Shown: positions 14,984 to 19,263, counted from the stretch's first letter. The stretch is 64,000 nucleotides of DNA from GCF_988242995.1 NZ_OZ547043.1, one strand, 5' to 3'. Made by a program: numbers and translations. The notes: generated from the sequence alone by a model not told the origin.

Positions 14984-15259
14984 CTATTTAAGATAGGCAC
15001 GAACCAGTTCAATAGTGTCGTCAACGGATTGGCTGACTTCGCGGCTGTAGCAGTCATTTCGGTCAAACGTTTCCCGGATATGGCTTTCAAGCACTTCTGC
15101 CATCAGCCCGTTAGCCGCGCCCCGAACGGCAGCGATCTGTTGGAGTATGGCACGGCATTCGGCATCACCCTCCAGCGACCGTTCCAGAGCATCAATCTGC
15201 CCCCGAATACGACGAACTCGAGTAAGGACCTTTTTCTTCTCTTCCGGAGTACTGGGCAT
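14984..15259 (-). CDS. frmR: formaldehyde-responsive repressor FrmR (CsoR/RcnR family)
   Basis: ORF 14984..15280; ATG at 15259 gives [30 protein letters not shown]..., 91 aa. Confidence 0.9.
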
Positions 15260-15284
15260 TTCGCACCTCATCATCTGCACGCAA

Positions 15285-15335
15285 TATACTATAGGGGGGT
15301 ATGCTATATGTCAATGCATACCCCCCTATAGTATA
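15285..15335. promoter_or_regulatory. frmRAB operator/promoter inverted repeat with G6/C6 tracts
   Basis: tatactataggggggtatgc - tatatgtcaat - gcatacccccctatagtata, a near-perfect 20-bp dyad just upstream of the frmR start. Confidence 0.7.
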
Positions 15336-15443
15336 TAACACTGGAGAATAAAATTTATCCGGTGAATGTAGTCGGATAACAAAAAGTAAAGAGGGGCCTA
15401 ATCGACAGGGAAGGCCGCCCCGGATAGCGGGCGGCAGAAGCAA

Positions 15444-16217
15444 TCAGAATTTCCAGGTCAGATGGGCTGCAAATTGCAGACCGTTATAATCATCAGTTGG
15501 GGTGTCGTACCACACTTTACCTGCCGTCAGCCCGAGATTAAGTTGCTCAGTCAGCGGTTGAATACGTTGCAAACTGACGCTCTTCATGCTGCCGTAGCGT
15601 GTTTCTGGCGTCCAGTCATAGGTGTAAGCGCCTGTTCCGCGGCTTAGCCATAGTTGCGTATAACCAGTGCCGCGCGGGTCATTCAGACGCACGGAAATCA
15701 TATTGCTGTAACTACCACCTGCATCGCTGGAGTCATAATGGGTATAGCGGTAGCTGGAGATCACCGGGCCAGTATAGAGTGATACGCCGCCTTGCCAGGC
15801 ATCGACTTCGACATCATCGTAATATTTCGTGTAGCGATAACCGGTCGTGAAAAGCGTTTTTGGCAACAGTGCCAGGTTAATATCCTGACGAAAATCCTGG
15901 CGGGCAAAGACCGGCGTATTATCCGCAAAGGCAATACCCGTTCGGGTTGTCAGCCAGTTATTCCATTTATACCAGACCGCACCCTGACCGCGAGTGGCAT
16001 TGAAATGTTCAGTTTCATAATCACGACGCCCCTGGGAAAGATTAAAAAGCAGCGTTGCGTTTTCAACTTTCGCCACCAGTTCAGCATACGCTAAATTACG
16101 GTTGCCATGATCGCCAGAATAATCGGTAAAATCGTAGCCCGCGGTAATGGAAGTTAACCCGGCATAAGCGGGCAATGCGCTAAAAATTGCTGCCGCTAAT
16201 AACGTCCGTTTTATCAT
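15444..16217 (-). CDS. yaiO: outer-membrane beta-barrel protein YaiO
   Basis: 257-aa ORF with signal peptide MIKRTLLAAAIFSALPAYA and C-terminal ...HLTWKF. Confidence 0.88.
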   Translation of the reverse strand: MIKRTLLAAAIFSALPAYAGLTSITAGYDFTDYSGDHGNRNLAYAELVAKVENATLLFNLSQGRRDYETEHFNATRGQGAVWYKWNNWLTTRTGIAFADNTPVFARQDFRQDINLALLPKTLFTTGYRYTKYYDDVEVDAWQGGVSLYTGPVISSYRYTHYDSSDAGGSYSNMISVRLNDPRGTGYTQLWLSRGTGAYTYDWTPETRYGSMKSVSLQRIQPLTEQLNLGLTAGKVWYDTPTDDYNGLQFAAHLTWKF

Positions 16218-16218
16218 T

Positions 16219-16929
16219 TTAATCTCCTGTACGGATAAGTTCTTGTCGGAGTGAATAAGTTCCGGTAGGTAAATTACGTTCTACAATCACGCGCGGGCCA
16301 AGTTGCGTGTTCGGGGAAATAATTCGCCCAGGCAAAATAATAACTTGTACGCCAAGGCGTGAACGCTGCCCGATATAACAACCTAATTTATCGCATTCGG
16401 TAGCGATAATTCCCTCTGGAGTTCGAACAGACACGGGCTGTTGATCCAGACGATGATTACTGGTACGTACTTGTGCGCCCAAATATGCCTGGTTTGCAAC
16501 TACCGAGTCGGCGATAAAGCATTGCGGACCAATCGTTGCTTCCGCTTCAATAACCGCATTTTTAATTTCGGTGGCAAAACCAATTTTTACGCCATTGCTG
16601 ATTATTGTGCCAGGACGAATAAACGCATAATTACCTATCAGGCAGTTTGCGCCAATCACTACCGGACCCTGAATAACGGCACCGTGACAAATACGGGTAT
16701 TCGCGCCGATAACAACTTCACCTGCAGTTTCATCAATAATTACCTGGTCTGCAATCTGAATATTTTTCTCTTTAACATTAAGCTTCAGAAAGTTTTTCAG
16801 TTCCTGTGACAGAAGGTTGGGAATAAGCGGTTGACGCTTCCACCAGTGCGGAATAGCGGGTGGGTTTGTCGCGCTGAGGTTCGCGTCCAGTAAAAAAGGC
16901 AATAAGTCCATAAATAATCCAGATGGCAT
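16219..16929 (-). CDS. yaiX: hexapeptide-repeat (left-handed beta-helix) acyl/acetyltransferase YaiX, intact; start uncertain
   Basis: 236-aa ORF rich in [LIV]-G-x-x-x-x hexapeptide repeats (VIGANTRI, VIGANCLIGNYAFI); first 152 nt overlap the yaiP 3' end, no internal Met, so true start is unresolved. Confidence 0.7.
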   Translation of the reverse strand: MPSGLFMDLLPFLLDANLSATNPPAIPHWWKRQPLIPNLLSQELKNFLKLNVKEKNIQIADQVIIDETAGEVVIGANTRICHGAVIQGPVVIGANCLIGNYAFIRPGTIISNGVKIGFATEIKNAVIEAEATIGPQCFIADSVVANQAYLGAQVRTSNHRLDQQPVSVRTPEGIIATECDKLGCYIGQRSRLGVQVIILPGRIISPNTQLGPRVIVERNLPTGTYSLRQELIRTGD

Positions 16930-17974
16930 AAGCTAATAATACATACACAACGGAAAGCGGCGCTAAAGGCACCAACAACCAGCAACGATGAAACCAGGCG
17001 CTAAAAGCACCAATAACACAAACTACGCCGACCCAGATAAGCGGAAACATTGCCAACACCACACCATGCGGCCCGGTGGTGATGAATTCATTAAACCAGG
17101 TAGTGAGATAAATCCCAACGCCATAAAGCACAACCAACAGCATAGGAAATATACTGAAGATACCGAAGCGGCTAAATAAAAGCCTTTTATGCAGGCGCAT
17201 ACAGACCGCGTAGCCCACAATCCAACGCCGCCAGCGACGCCATTCCTCACGCGGGCTGTTGCATTCCTGTGGGTATACGATGCAGCGATTCGCCTGCCGA
17301 ATACGATAGCCGTTTGCCACCAATGTCCAGGTGAGATCAAGGTCTTCGACTTTAGTACGATCAGAGAAACCGAACTTACGCAATACATCAGTACGGAACA
17401 TCCCGCAGGCACCGCTGATAATAAACGGTGCGCCGCCCAGGAGCTGCTGTAGCGTGCGCTTCATAACAATCATCGGCAACTTTACGGTCGCGCGGATGTG
17501 CGGTAACAGACCCGCGCCTTTCAACGCAGTAGAGGGAATGCCGCCTACGGCATCAGCACCGCGCTCTATTTCTGCAAGCATATAGCCCATTCCGTCTTGA
17601 TCGGGCGGAACATAGGTGTCGGCATCACTTAAAAAAACCTGGTCGCAGGTGGCGTAATTGAGGCCATTCATCAGCGCACCACCTTTACCGGTATTTTTTT
17701 GCGTGACGGCAACAAAGCGGTCGCCCCATTTGCGTTTGACTTCCGCCATGACCGCTTCGGTATTGTCCGTGGAGCCGTCGTTTACGCAAATTACCCGGCA
17801 AAAATAAGGATTACGCAGCAGATTATCCAGTGACTGTGCCAGACACGGGCCTTCGTTATAAGCAGGTATAATGGCGTCAATACAGCCTTTCTTTTGACTG
17901 GGTTTACGTTTTAGCGTACTTAAAAACCATAGCAACATTGCTATGGACATACAGATAAATATCCAGGTTTTCAT
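16778..17974 (-). CDS. yaiP: family-2 glycosyltransferase, membrane-associated
   Basis: 398-aa ORF; N-terminal TM, GT-A fold with DGSTD and SDADT (DxD-like) motifs, C-terminal TM helices. Confidence 0.88.
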   Translation of the reverse strand: MKTWIFICMSIAMLLWFLSTLKRKPSQKKGCIDAIIPAYNEGPCLAQSLDNLLRNPYFCRVICVNDGSTDNTEAVMAEVKRKWGDRFVAVTQKNTGKGGALMNGLNYATCDQVFLSDADTYVPPDQDGMGYMLAEIERGADAVGGIPSTALKGAGLLPHIRATVKLPMIVMKRTLQQLLGGAPFIISGACGMFRTDVLRKFGFSDRTKVEDLDLTWTLVANGYRIRQANRCIVYPQECNSPREEWRRWRRWIVGYAVCMRLHKRLLFSRFGIFSIFPMLLVVLYGVGIYLTTWFNEFITTGPHGVVLAMFPLIWVGVVCVIGAFSAWFHRCWLLVPLAPLSVVYVLLAYAIWIIYGLIAFFTGREPQRDKPTRYSALVEASTAYSQPSVTGTEKLSEA

Positions 17975-17983
17975 GCAATTTGC

Positions 17984-18655
17984 TCAAAGAATCATTTTAT
18001 GAATTACAAAGCCTTCACCCAGATCGCTATTGACCTGTTGCCCGCGAAATTGTGCAACTGCACGCAGGCGATCATGACGCATATAATCGCGTCGTTCCTG
18101 GCTTTTATGTTTTTTTAATGCAGCAAGTTTGACTGTGAAATATTCTTCTTTAACGGATTCAAAAACCTGAGGCATAAATGAAAGCCAGGTGCTTGGGGTT
18201 TCGTAGCCGAGAATTTGTGGAATAGTTCGGCAGGCAACCATTGAAGCTTGATAAACAGCAAGATGATCCTGATGGCGGTCGGCATCATGCATGGTATATA
18301 CCCGCATGATTTCAACATCAGAAGGAATTTGATTTTTAATGATGTCTTCCAGGGCGGAAATCATATCATTGAGCTGCAAATGCGCGCGGGTGTCAGCAAA
18401 ATTAAGATGAATAGTTTGGTGGCACCCTAATATCTTTAGGGCGTTGCGCGATTCTTCATGGCGATCGATTATTCCATCTGTGCCAGAGTTGCCGGTAGTC
18501 ATCACCACGGCTGCGATATAAATTCCTTTTTGCGCAAGACGAGCAAGCGACGCGCCACAGCCCAATTCTATATCATCAGGATGTGCGCCAATAGCAAGGA
18601 TACCCTTTCTTTTATTTGCCGAAGAAAGGATGGCTGAATCTAAAACCTTATCCAC
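17984..18655 (-). CDS. yaiS: LmbE/PIG-L family deacetylase
   Basis: 223-aa ORF with N-terminal AHPDDIELG motif typical of LmbE-like N-deacetylases; recorded K-12 length may be shorter. Confidence 0.8.
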   Translation of the reverse strand: MDKVLDSAILSSANKRKGILAIGAHPDDIELGCGASLARLAQKGIYIAAVVMTTGNSGTDGIIDRHEESRNALKILGCHQTIHLNFADTRAHLQLNDMISALEDIIKNQIPSDVEIMRVYTMHDADRHQDHLAVYQASMVACRTIPQILGYETPSTWLSFMPQVFESVKEEYFTVKLAALKKHKSQERRDYMRHDRLRAVAQFRGQQVNSDLGEGFVIHKMIL

Positions 18656-19263
18656 TTAATGACACTCCATTTTATTTATTATACTACAAGCACAACGATG
18701 CCCGCAGAGACGTAATCTCTGGCACAGACAGATGCTAATTTTTAAGTGTTAAAAATTACTGATAGCTGAAAAATAAGGGGCTTTCAGGTACGGGGATACG
18801 GCTGCGTAATCTTTTATGTAGTTCATATGTTAAGTGTTTGTGTGTTTGGTTTGTATAGTTATTTTGTTTTATATATTGTATTTAGATGTGATTTAGTTTG
18901 TCAATTAATTACATATTAAAAATATGTTCTAGGCACAAATATGGATTATATACATTATGTGAATGTATTATGTGGTTGATTGAGAATGATACAGTTATAT
19001 ATGCAATGTGAATATAATGATTTCATTATATGTATTGCTGTTAATAAAATAAAAGACATTATGTTCTGCTTGTTTATGCATTAATAAAAATGAAGTGCAG
19101 TAACTTACTGAATTGTCAGAGTGGGTGTAATTGCATATTTAATCTTTCCTTTGCCGCTTTTTTGCTAAGAATAAAATCATCTGTGCGATAACGACTAATT
19201 CTTTTAATGAATGTTTTTATTCCTGAATACTGCTCCTATAACAAGACAGGGGAGCAGACAATC

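What the first reader, a model, noticed from the sequence alone, without database searches (positions are those of the whole stretch)
15444..18655. Intact four-gene yaiS-yaiP-yaiX-yaiO module with an unusual 152-nt yaiP/yaiX overlap
On the minus strand an LmbE-like deacetylase, a GT2 glycosyltransferase, a hexapeptide-repeat acyltransferase and an outer-membrane beta-barrel lie head to tail with 1-10-nt gaps, suggesting one operon for modifying and exporting a glycoconjugate. yaiX is intact here but IS2-disrupted in K-12 as I remember it. The longest yaiX frame overlaps the yaiP 3' end by 152 nt out of frame and has no internal Met, so its true start (non-ATG or coupled) is unresolved.
Basis: partly seen in the sequence, partly recalled or inferred. 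Interest (0 to 1): 0.4.

Follow-up and report, generated by a model that had tools for sequence, protein, structure and literature searches.

The report
yaiX start inside yaiP resolved
An intact four-gene E. coli operon for making a surface sugar polymer has one gene that starts 134 bases inside the previous gene; comparison with other bacteria shows that this overlap is real and conserved, and fixes a start codon that public annotations place in at least six different positions.

Summary
The window is E. coli. The yaiS, yaiP, yaiX and yaiO ORFs lie at the stated coordinates on the minus strand, with 9-nt and 1-nt gaps. yaiX is intact here and IS2-split in K-12.

The 152-nt figure is correct for the longest ORF, but "no internal Met" is wrong: codon 7 is ATG (16911). 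That ATG is kept in all 15 enterobacterial-type loci examined.

From exactly that codon, nine yaiP codons show zero third-position variation. None of 345 control windows was that low. The six codons upstream vary normally. yaiX is therefore most likely 230 aa with a 134-nt overlap. PGAP's 193-aa CTG start would remove an N-terminal Trp-Trp motif conserved across the whole family.

Outside Enterobacteriaceae, yaiX starts at ATG/GTG-TGG-TGG, overlaps yaiP by 14 nt, and has an AGG codon acting as a Shine-Dalgarno sequence. Enterobacteria lost that start and SD, and most also lost the yaiP stop.

The four-gene order holds in gamma- and alphaproteobacteria and on plasmids. The YaiP model resembles hyaluronan and cellulose synthases. 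The YaiO model is a 14-strand barrel like CymA and OmpG. YaiS and YaiX are cytoplasmic deacetylase and acyltransferase types.

The most likely product is a tailored hexosamine glycan that drives cell clumping. This is a modestly novel variant of a known kind.

The parts
18875..18904 (-). Sigma-70 promoter-like site TTGACA-18-TACAAT upstream of yaiS, in an AT-rich spacer (GC 0.30)
   Evidence: 11 of 12 matches; composition. PMC3946193 lists the same hexamers for yaiS and marks the spacer as H-NS bound.
17984..18655 (-). yaiS: PIG-L/LmbE-type zinc deacetylase, 223 aa, GTG start, no signal peptide. GGAG lies 9 nt upstream of the start.
   Evidence: The AHPDD and HQDH motifs are visible in the translation. 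Homologues align to residue 223.
16778..17974 (-). yaiP: membrane-embedded GT2 synthase, 398 aa
   Evidence: The AlphaFold model (pLDDT 83.5) best matches hyaluronan synthases (TMq 0.62-0.67) and BcsA (0.56).
16778..16852 (-). C-terminal tail of yaiP (codons 375-398 plus stop). It is specific to enterobacteria, poorly conserved and predicted disordered. It arose by loss of the ancestral TGA stop.
   Evidence: non-enterobacterial YaiP is 378-381 aa; pLDDT below 50 for residues 376-398.
16219..16911 (-). yaiX as re-delimited here: 230-aa left-handed beta-helix acyltransferase starting at the conserved ATG (codon 7 of the 236-aa ORF)
16778..16911 (-). The yaiP/yaiX overlap: 134 nt, with yaiX in the +1 frame relative to yaiP
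16885..16911 (-). Dual-constrained segment. It encodes yaiX codons 1-9 (MDLLPFLLD), and those 27 nt span yaiP codons 355-363 (YGLIAFFTG). It is nearly invariant in all three codon phases.
   Evidence: pi 0.04/0.00/0.14. (third-position pi 0.000, against a minimum of 0.271 in 345 control windows).
16840..16845 (-). The Trp-Trp codons of yaiX. The motif is conserved across the family and marks the ancestral N-terminus (M/V-W-W).
   Evidence: yaiP codons 377-378 have third-position pi of 0.
16224..16228 (-). AGGAG Shine-Dalgarno for yaiO, inside the last codons of yaiX. The yaiX stop (TAA) is 1 nt before the yaiO ATG.
15444..16217 (-). yaiO: outer-membrane 14-strand beta-barrel with a signal peptide, 257 aa

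Best explanation
yaiS-yaiP-yaiX-yaiO is one mobile operon, probably silenced by H-NS.

Gene structure (confidence about 0.8):
- yaiX starts at the ATG at window 16911 and encodes 230 aa. That ATG is formed by the last two bases of a conserved Tyr/His codon (NAT) and the first base of the following Gly codon of yaiP.
- The two genes therefore overlap by 134 nt, out of frame.
- In the ancestral arrangement, still found in Pseudomonas, Acinetobacter, Sphingomonas and others, yaiX began at (A/G)TG-TGG-TGG. It overlapped the yaiP stop by 14 nt. The AGG Arg codon of the yaiP '(T/E/K)RY' motif served as its Shine-Dalgarno sequence.
- Enterobacterial lineages lost that start and SD, and recruited the ATG 21-23 codons upstream. 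Most later lost the yaiP TGA stop and gained a 19-24 residue disordered tail.
- The overlap is partitioned. The first 27 nt are constrained in both frames. The next 39 nt or so are governed by yaiP. The last 68 nt or so are governed by yaiX.

Function (inferred, confidence about 0.45):
- YaiP is a membrane-integrated processive GT2 synthase that makes a hexosamine (GlcNAc-type) glycan.
- YaiS (cytoplasmic de-N-acetylase) and YaiX (cytoplasmic acyltransferase) tailor the precursor or the cytoplasmic end of the chain. YaiX may be docked at the membrane or on the synthase by its N-terminal peptide and Trp-Trp motif.
- YaiO is the outer-membrane conduit.
- The product promotes cell-cell clumping.
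For: Start and overlap:
- An ATG is present at the equivalent position in all 15 enterobacterial-type loci. In four of them a stop in the yaiX frame lies one codon upstream.
- Third-position diversity of yaiP codons 355-363 is 0.000. No control 9-codon window out of 345 is as low (minimum 0.271, mean 0.50). Codons 349-354 vary normally.
- At yaiP codon 357 the YaiP residue varies (L/S/T/F/P/I) while the yaiX residues stay D/E-L.
- Diversity by codon phase switches from a yaiP-type to a yaiX-type pattern along the overlap.
- Trp-Trp is present in every homologue. That includes CPR loci where yaiX follows yaiS rather than yaiP, and distant homologues begin M/V-W-W.
- In 7 of 7 distant loci the junction reads AGR-TAY-N4-RTG-TGG-TGG-N3-TGA. 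The same Arg codon is CGN in all 15 enterobacterial-type loci.
- Non-enterobacterial YaiP proteins are 378-381 aa. The tail of the YaiP model is disordered.

Operon:
- Conserved synteny.
- A single promoter.
- An SD for yaiO inside yaiX.

Function:
- Fold matches for YaiP and YaiO.
- Nearest NCBIfam families are PgaC_IcaA, BshB1 and archaeal GlmU.
- The C-terminal domain of ST0452 matches the YaiX family profile at E 1e-34.
- Catalytic motifs are invariant in YaiP.
- Repairing yaiX in K-12 gives clumping that depends on YaiP (PMC3531124).
- EAL or GGDEF-EAL genes and fimbrial operons are neighbours in several loci.
Against: - There is no direct protein or ribosome-profiling evidence for the N-terminus.
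- The SD before the 16911 ATG is weak (GGA, 6-nt spacer). PMC13058169 reports no SD for the 236-aa form.
- The 12-15 sequences compared represent only about 5-6 independent lineages.
- The invariance of the 27 nt could partly reflect an RNA-level constraint on initiation, rather than selection on the peptide.
- For function: no glycan has been characterised.
- There is no periplasmic TPR scaffold and no recognisable c-di-GMP receptor, unlike the Pga, Bcs, Alg and Pel systems.
- The His that aligns with ST0452 His308 is Gln in YaiX, so its chemistry is uncertain.
- Cytoplasmic tailoring of a polymer that is translocated as it is made is topologically awkward.
Confidence: 0.6

Rival explanations
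1. RefSeq/PGAP model: yaiX starts at window 16800 and encodes 193 aa, overlapping yaiP by only 23 nt.
For: PGAP annotates this start in most E. coli records. The codon is GTG in several Citrobacter-type and plasmid alleles. AGGA lies just upstream.
Against: - The codon is CTG in this window and in the E. coli records L001, L003 and L020.
- It is not a start codon in L007, L009, L024 or L025.
- The AGGA is only 1 nt from the codon.
- This start would remove the Trp-Trp motif that is conserved in every homologue and forms the N-terminus of distant ones.
- It does not explain the suppressed synonymous variation at yaiP codons 355-363 and 377-378.
- Annotated starts are inconsistent between records: 174, 183, 193, 199, 200 and 229 aa.
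Confidence: 0.07
2. Longest-ORF model: yaiX starts at the first ATG (16929) and encodes 236 aa, overlapping yaiP by 152 nt. This is the form used by KEGG and by PMC13058169.
For: It is an ATG and gives the longest ORF. The 236-aa clone was active in an overexpression assay.
Against: - This ATG exists only in the E. coli-type alleles examined (E. coli chromosomal, island and plasmid copies, and E. whittamii). Citrobacter-type alleles have no start codon there, and in four loci the yaiX frame is closed there.
- The six codons between the two ATGs show normal yaiP synonymous variation (pi3 0.41-0.77 at codons 349-351 and 353-354), so there is no sign of dual coding.
- No SD-like sequence precedes it.
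Confidence: 0.1
3. The module does not make a long exopolysaccharide. Instead it makes a short N-acylated hexosamine oligosaccharide or glycolipid. The logic would follow Nod factor synthesis: synthase, then terminal de-N-acetylation, then re-acylation. The product would be released through YaiO.
For: - All three enzymes are cytoplasmic or face the cytoplasm.
- The best solved relative of YaiS is diacetylchitobiose deacetylase. From memory, that enzyme acts on the non-reducing-end GlcNAc.
- The nearest relatives of YaiX N-acylate glucosamine amines: ST0452, GlmU and LpxD.
- NodC is among the YaiP family hits.
- There is no periplasmic scaffold gene.
- YaiO resembles the oligosaccharide channels CymA and OmpG more than PgaA or BcsC.
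- CPR bacteria keep yaiS and yaiX with a GT2 but have no yaiO.
Against: - The clumping phenotype is more typical of a polymeric adhesin.
- YaiP's best family match is PgaC/IcaA, and its best fold matches are polymer synthases.
- No chemistry is available to decide.
Confidence: 0.25
4. YaiX is made wholly or partly as a YaiP-YaiX fusion. Ribosomes would slip +1 in the T6 run (GCC TTT TTT ACT) just after the yaiX ATG, and the invariant 27 nt would be a frameshift signal.
For: - The T6 run lies in the invariant segment and would allow a +1 re-pairing of tRNA-Phe.
- Alleles encoding YaiP-YaiX fusions exist (P0150 with 15 members, P0092 with 6 members). Their fusion point is a different homopolymer near the yaiP stop.
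Against: - The T6 run is absent in L026 and L027, which keep the ATG.
- No stimulatory element or slow codon is evident, and there is no RNA structure (z = +0.65).
- The ATG itself is conserved, often immediately after a stop in the yaiX frame, which a frameshift mechanism would not require.
- The fusion alleles may be mutations or homopolymer sequencing errors.
Confidence: 0.03
5. The overlap is meaningless because yaiX is a decaying gene in E. coli.
For: - yaiX is IS2-disrupted in K-12, and other strains carry IS insertions in the cluster.
- O157:H7 lacks the cluster.
- The region is H-NS bound and little expressed.
Against: - 4909 of 5426 complete genomes carry yaiX. In 4464 of them at least 80% of the ORF lies in one uninterrupted place.
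- The yaiX-only part shows a typical purifying-selection pattern (pi 0.2/0.1-0.16/0.5 by codon position).
- The module is kept on conjugative plasmids and in distant phyla.
Confidence: 0.03

Closest known systems
PgaABCD / IcaADBC poly-beta-1,6-GlcNAc systems
   Same: The same four functional roles are present: a membrane GT2 synthase (PgaC_IcaA is YaiP's best NCBIfam hit), a de-N-acetylase, an acyl-modifying enzyme (IcaC in staphylococci, from memory) and an outer-membrane beta-barrel. The phenotype is aggregation or biofilm.
   Different: - YaiP scores 100.8 bits against a cut-off of 422.3, so it is not an orthologue.
- The deacetylase is a cytoplasmic LmbE/PIG-L enzyme, not a periplasmic CE4 enzyme.
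- The acyltransferase is a soluble left-handed beta-helix protein.
- YaiO is a 14-strand barrel without a TPR domain.
- There is no PgaD-like partner and no known c-di-GMP site.
Hyaluronan synthase / BcsA class of processive membrane GT2 synthases
   Same: These are the best fold matches (TMq 0.62-0.67 and 0.56). The DxD, ED and RxxRW-type motifs are invariant across 63 homologues.
   Different: Sequence identity is 12-18%. YaiP is smaller (398 aa) and has no PilZ domain. Its substrate and processivity are untested.
NodC-NodB-NodA/NodL (lipo-chitooligosaccharide synthesis)
   Same: Same order of chemistry: a GT2 oligo-GlcNAc synthase, a de-N-acetylase and an acyltransferase, all on the cytoplasmic side. 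NodL is also a hexapeptide-repeat enzyme (from memory).
   Different: YaiS has a different fold from NodB (LmbE versus CE4), and YaiX has a different fold from NodA. Export would be through an outer-membrane barrel rather than NodIJ. The NodC model scores only E 3e-7.
C-terminal acetyltransferase domain of ST0452 / GlmU (amino-sugar-1-phosphate N-acetyltransferases)
   Same: This is the best solved relative of YaiX (profile E 1e-34 over the whole beta-helix domain). The Asn of the 'SNHRLD' motif aligns with Asn331 of ST0452.
   Different: YaiX has no nucleotidyltransferase domain. The residue aligned with ST0452 His308 is Gln136. YaiX has its own invariant RTSNHRLD motif and an N-terminal Trp-Trp segment. 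It scores 127.6 bits against the 292.1 cut-off of TIGR03992.
Long same-strand out-of-frame gene overlaps in bacteria
   Same: Two intact ORFs share 134 nt in different frames, and synonymous change is suppressed in the upstream gene.
   Different: From general knowledge, most bacterial same-strand overlaps are 1 or 4 nt, and long ones are often mis-annotated starts. Here the long overlap has a traceable origin (start migration plus stop loss) and is partitioned into zones ruled by both frames, by yaiP and by yaiX.

Membership tests
Processive membrane GT2 synthases (HAS / BcsA / PgaC / NodC class) | GT-A domain with DxD, a catalytic ED/TED and a (Q/R)xxRW motif | tested here: met
   D117-A-D119, E210-D211 and R247-W248...R250-W251 are invariant in 63 homologues. 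Pfam PF00535, PF13641 and PF13632 match. The roles of the motifs are assigned from memory of the family.
Processive membrane GT2 synthases (HAS / BcsA / PgaC / NodC class) | C-terminal transmembrane helices packed on the GT domain to form a translocation channel | tested here: met
   The AlphaFold model (pLDDT 83.5, pTM 0.83) aligns over about 400 columns with hyaluronan synthases (TMq 0.62-0.67) and BcsA (0.56).
Processive membrane GT2 synthases (HAS / BcsA / PgaC / NodC class) | Processive polymerisation coupled to export | not testable with these tools
   Needs biochemistry.
PgaC/IcaA equivalog (TIGR03937) | Score at or above the curated cut-off of 422.3 bits | tested here: not met
   100.8 bits.
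PIG-L / LmbE zinc deacetylases | PF02585 above the gathering score, with the AHPDD and HxxH metal-binding motifs | tested here: met
   89.2 bits against 28.2. GAHPDD (residues 23-28) and HQDH (128-131) are visible in the translation.
Bacillithiol deacetylase BshB1 (TIGR04001) | Score at or above 182.5 bits | tested here: not met
   80.0 bits.
Hexapeptide-repeat (left-handed beta-helix) acyltransferases | PF00132 repeats above threshold | tested here: met
   64.3 bits against 27.
GlmU / ST0452-type amino-sugar-1-phosphate N-acetyltransferase | Family score cut-off, and the His aligned with ST0452 His308 (GlmU His363) | tested here: not met
   TIGR03992 scores 127.6 bits against 292.1. The aligned residue is Gln136, in the 'GPQCF' segment (P135, C137 and F138 invariant, Q136 in at least 90% of the 29 sequences aligned). 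The role of His308 is recalled from memory.
YaiO family outer-membrane beta-barrel | TIGR04390 / PF19413 above cut-off, a signal peptide and a closed beta-barrel | tested here: met
   184.8 bits against 32, and 91 bits against 23.9. The model has 14 strands at pLDDT 89.8. The N-terminal hydrophobic leader ends in AYA.
Synthase-dependent exopolysaccharide secretion systems (Pga, Bcs, Alg, Pel) | Inner-membrane synthase plus outer-membrane beta-barrel encoded together | tested here: met
Synthase-dependent exopolysaccharide secretion systems (Pga, Bcs, Alg, Pel) | Periplasmic TPR scaffold | tested here: not met
   YaiO is barrel only. No fifth gene is conserved next to the module in 11 loci.
Synthase-dependent exopolysaccharide secretion systems (Pga, Bcs, Alg, Pel) | c-di-GMP receptor controlling the synthase | tested here: inconclusive
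   No PilZ or similar domain was found in the four proteins. EAL or PAS-GGDEF-EAL genes lie next to the module in L011, L024 and L025.
Genuine dual-coding gene overlap | Both frames open and homologous across divergent taxa | tested here: met
   15 enterobacterial-type loci have overlaps of 83-149 nt. 7 distant loci have a 14-nt overlap.
Genuine dual-coding gene overlap | Synonymous variation in the upstream gene is suppressed where the downstream frame is constrained | tested here: met
   pi3 is 0.000 for yaiP codons 355-363, against at least 0.271 in 345 control windows.
Genuine dual-coding gene overlap | Protein-level evidence for the downstream N-terminus | not testable with these tools
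   No proteomic or ribosome-profiling data were available for a strain with intact yaiX.

The most novel reading that the evidence does not exclude
YaiS, YaiP and YaiX form a membrane-docked assembly line. YaiX would be tethered by its N-terminal peptide and Trp-Trp motif. The assembly would carry out Nod-factor-like chemistry using non-homologous enzymes. The non-reducing hexosamine of the YaiP product would be de-N-acetylated by the LmbE-type YaiS and re-acylated by YaiX with an acyl group other than acetyl. This would give enterobacteria, pseudomonads, sphingomonads and even CPR bacteria an undescribed class of N-acylated hexosamine oligo- or polysaccharide, released in diderms through the small CymA/OmpG-like barrel YaiO.
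Probability: 0.15. Interest if true: 0.7.

Novelty: new variant of a known kind. Interest (0 to 1): 0.4.

Why it matters
- Practical: yaiX is currently annotated with at least six different starts (174-236 aa), using CTG, GTG, TTG, ATT or ATG codons. The commonest RefSeq model removes a family-wide conserved N-terminal motif. Anyone cloning or deleting yaiX or yaiP needs the 230-aa frame, and needs to know that the last 134 nt of yaiP are also yaiX. A yaiP deletion or a 3' tag on yaiP will damage yaiX.
- Evolutionary: this is a clean, datable case of how a long out-of-frame overlap arises. A start codon and its SD were lost, an upstream ATG was captured inside a conserved codon pair, and a stop was then lost. 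It also shows how two frames divide the constraint between them.
- Biological: the operon is present in about 90% of complete E. coli genomes and on conjugative plasmids. It is linked to clumping, yet it is damaged twice in K-12, which helps explain why it has remained uncharacterised.

Tried and rejected
- Metagenome scan for the ancestral junction pattern AGRTAYNNNNRTGTGGTGGNNNTGA. None encodes any of the four proteins, so all were chance matches. The pattern was too degenerate and the scan was wasted.
- Literature searches on 'yaiP' and 'yaiO' alone were mostly noise: author names, strain names and PCR-marker papers. Three follow-ups gave nothing on function.
- RNA structure around the yaiX start: none (z = +0.65). 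This gives no support for a structured regulatory or frameshift element.
- The terminator-like hairpins inside yaiP are no more frequent than in shuffled sequence (3 against 4.3), so they were disregarded.
- YaiO has no sequence match in the PDB, so fold comparison was needed.
- I considered that the similarity of the yaiX N-terminal extension between distant taxa (tblastn alignments reaching residues 1-4) showed a conserved peptide. I rejected this. Between codons 10 and 22 the similarity is a by-product of the conserved yaiP motif TGREPxRDKPTRY read in the +1 frame.

Full report
**What is there**

The window is E. coli chromosome. The 4.2-kb query matches 5424 of 5426 complete genomes, and the neighbours are frmRAB and tauABCD.

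Four ORFs lie on the minus strand:
- yaiS, 17984-18655, 223 aa, GTG start
- yaiP, 16778-17974, 398 aa
- the longest yaiX ORF, 16219-16929, 236 aa
- yaiO, 15444-16217, 257 aa

The gaps are 9 nt (yaiS to yaiP) and 1 nt (yaiX to yaiO). The longest yaiX ORF overlaps yaiP by 152 nt in the +1 frame.

Pfam assigns PIG-L, Glycos_transf_2, Hexapep and YaiO, all above their gathering scores. In K-12, yaiX is split by IS2.

The ORF does have an internal Met: codon 7, ATG at 16911.

**Where yaiX starts**

Public annotation is inconsistent. The records I fetched use CTG, GTG, TTG, ATT or ATG starts, giving 174, 183, 193, 199, 200 or 229 aa. KEGG and a 2026 paper use 236 aa. The usual PGAP start corresponds to window 16800, which is CTG here.

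Homologues give a clearer picture.
- Enterobacterial YaiX proteins begin MDLLPFLLD, which corresponds to codon 7.
- Relatives at about 50% identity are about 206 aa long and begin M/V-W-W. This aligns with H28-W29-W30 of the window ORF.
- In seven non-enterobacterial genomes (Pseudomonas viridiflava, Acinetobacter, Sphingomonas and alphaproteobacterial MAGs), yaiP ends ...KP(T/E/K)RYxxVVx-TGA.
- In those genomes yaiX starts at (A/G)TG-TGG-TGG, 14 nt before the end of the yaiP stop codon.
- The yaiP Arg codon of '(T/E/K)RY' is AGG (AGA in one locus), which forms an SD 8-9 nt upstream of the start.
- In all 15 enterobacterial-type loci that Arg codon is CGN, and the codon before Trp-Trp is His, Pro, Arg or Ala.
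- All 15 have an ATG 21-23 codons upstream of Trp-Trp. In four of them it sits directly after a stop in the yaiX frame.
- The ATG at 16929 is found only in the E. coli-type alleles examined (E. coli chromosomal, island and plasmid copies, and E. whittamii).

**Selection test**

I used 12-13 divergent enterobacterial-type sequences. Their pairwise third-position difference elsewhere in yaiP is about 0.5.
- The nine yaiP codons 355-363 begin with the Tyr/His codon that supplies the 'AT' of the ATG. Their third-position diversity is 0.000.
- None of 345 control 9-codon windows is as low (minimum 0.271, mean 0.50, sd 0.073).
- Codons 349-351 and 353-354, which would be translated only from the 16929 ATG, vary normally (0.41-0.77).
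- At yaiP codon 357 the YaiP residue changes freely (L/S/T/F/P/I), while the yaiX reading stays Asp/Glu-Leu.

Diversity by yaiX codon position:

| yaiX codons | pos 1 | pos 2 | pos 3 | Interpretation |
|---|---|---|---|---|
| 1-9 | 0.04 | 0.00 | 0.14 | both frames constrained |
| 10-22 | 0.11 | 0.47 | 0.18 | yaiP rules; yaiX position 2 is yaiP position 3 |
| 23-45 | 0.25 | 0.26 | 0.44 | yaiX rules |
| yaiX-only region | about 0.2 | 0.10-0.16 | about 0.5 | ordinary purifying selection |

The yaiP tail created by loss of the ancestral stop is poorly conserved. It is also predicted to be disordered (pLDDT below 50 for residues 376-398). Non-enterobacterial YaiP proteins are 378-381 aa.

I conclude that yaiX is 16911-16219 (230 aa), with a genuine 134-nt overlap. 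My confidence is about 0.8. The SD is weak (GGA, 6-nt AU-rich spacer), and the region is unstructured. No direct protein evidence exists.

**How the overlap arose**

The loci suggest three stages.
1. Ancestral state: a 14-nt overlap with a canonical SD and start.
2. Loss of that start and capture of the upstream ATG. The Salmonella and Enterobacter plasmid alleles L026 and L027 represent this stage, with overlaps of 83 and 95 nt and a yaiP tail that is still short.
3. Loss of the yaiP TGA, which adds 19-24 codons. Overlaps are then 134-149 nt in the Escherichia, Citrobacter, Superficieibacter and IncF plasmid alleles.

**One operon?**

- All 13 proteobacterial loci from the genome scan carry the four genes in the same order.
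- Two CPR MAGs, which lack an outer membrane, have yaiS and yaiX followed by a different GT2, and no yaiO.
- The module also sits on conjugative IncF and IncI plasmids, and in a second chromosomal island in some E. coli strains.
- The only strong promoter-like site on the coding strand upstream of the cluster is TTGACA-18-TACAAT at 18904-18875. Genomic SELEX lists the same hexamers for yaiS and marks the spacer as H-NS bound (PMC3946193).
- The yaiO ATG is 1 nt after the yaiX stop, with AGGAG inside yaiX.
- Co-transcription is therefore well supported but has not been shown directly.

**What it probably does**

- YaiP. The model (pLDDT 83.5) best matches hyaluronan synthases and BcsA. Its best curated family is PgaC/IcaA, far below the cut-off. 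The DxD, ED and RxxRW motifs are invariant.
- YaiS. It has the AHPDD and HQDH metal-binding motifs. Its nearest solved relative is diacetylchitobiose deacetylase, and its best-scoring curated family is BshB1.
- YaiX. The family profile matches the acetyltransferase domain of ST0452 at E 1e-34. The position of ST0452 His308 is Gln, and YaiX has its own invariant RTSNHRLD motif.
- Phenotype. EcoGene 3.0 reports, from a meeting abstract, that repairing yaiX in K-12 causes vegetative clumping that requires YaiP.
- Neighbours. These include EAL or PAS-GGDEF-EAL genes and fimbrial operons in several loci.

The best-supported model is a synthase-dependent hexosamine glycan. It would be tailored on the cytoplasmic side by a deacetylase and an acyltransferase, and passed through YaiO, producing an aggregation factor. 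This is inference, at about 0.45 confidence.

A Nod-factor-like short N-acylated product is a serious rival (0.25). There is no periplasmic scaffold, and all the tailoring enzymes are cytoplasmic.

**Comparison with known systems, and novelty**

The genes are named and annotated, and the clumping phenotype and a yaiX overexpression phenotype are on record. The module itself is therefore not new.

What appears to be new:
- the resolved start;
- the demonstration that the long overlap is real and partitioned between the two frames;
- its evolutionary origin;
- the recognition that the module is a widespread, mobile variant of synthase-type glycan systems, with non-orthologous cytoplasmic tailoring enzymes and a small barrel.

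It fails the curated cut-offs for PgaC, BshB1 and GlmU, so it should not be filed as any of these. I rate it a new variant of a known kind, with interest 0.4.

**Limits**

- The comparison set has about 5-6 independent lineages.
- The diversity counts are descriptive, not a formal codon model.
- The metagenome scan failed.
- No expression, proteomic or chemical data exist for an intact operon.

Noticed in passing
window 18098-18100 (yaiS codon 186); L002: K-12 yaiS has CAG changed to TAG at codon 186, which truncates the 223-aa protein to 185 aa. The window has CAG. Homologues in all phyla align to residue 223. K-12 therefore carries two lesions in this operon: IS2 in yaiX and a nonsense codon in yaiS.
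   Followed up: yes
window 17999-18118 (+): The ORF for the small protein YkiC (39 aa, validated by tagging in K-12; PMC6001520) is intact here, with one residue different. It lies antisense to the 3' end of the full-length yaiS CDS. In K-12 that stretch is left untranslated by the yaiS nonsense codon.
   Followed up: partly
P0150 and P0092 (E. coli alleles); corresponds to window about 16785-16800: In these alleles a frameshift in the A-run just before the yaiP stop fuses full-length YaiP to YaiX from about residue 46 (15 and 6 member sequences). This is either a natural 'Rosetta stone' fusion, hinting that the two proteins act together, or a set of homopolymer sequencing errors.
   Followed up: partly
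L001, L003, L019-L027 (annotated records): RefSeq and GenBank annotate yaiX with CTG, GTG, TTG, ATT or ATG starts, giving 174-229 aa. In L003, PGAP marks an intact yaiS, identical to the window's, as a pseudogene and places a ykiC-like ORF there.
   Followed up: yes
L019 (E. coli FDAARGOS_1266); L020-L027 (plasmids): The module is mobile. There is a second copy, 91% identical, in a chromosomal island beside IS66 and ISL3 remnants and ibrB-like genes. There are also copies on IncF and IncI conjugative plasmids of E. coli, Salmonella and Enterobacter, often next to EAL-domain genes, fimbrial operons or AraC regulators.
   Followed up: partly
L014, L015 (Candidatus Kaiserbacteria and Paceibacterota MAGs): These CPR bacteria have adjacent yaiS and yaiX homologues (44-50% identity). 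They are followed by a different GT2 (25-28% identity to YaiP), and there is no yaiO. YaiX still starts M/V-W-W.
   Followed up: partly
P0242 (E. coli YaiO variant, 342 aa); window about 15190-15443: A YaiO variant with an 85-residue C-terminal read-through into the yaiO-frmR spacer occurs in 24 member sequences on 69 contigs. The read-through frame matches the 83-aa ORF listed at 15192-15443 in the window.
   Followed up: no
window 18656-18670 (-): A four-codon mini-ORF (ATG GAG TGT CAT TAA) ends immediately before the yaiS GTG start. Its GGAG doubles as the yaiS SD, 9 nt upstream of the start.
   Followed up: no
yaiO, window 15444-16217; L005, L006, L008, L026, L027: yaiO is widely used as an E. 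coli-specific PCR target (e.g. PMC4453288). YaiO homologues at 53-81% protein identity exist in Citrobacter and Superficieibacter, and on Salmonella and Enterobacter plasmids. About 10% of complete E. coli genomes lack yaiX, and O157:H7 records match only frmR.
   Followed up: no
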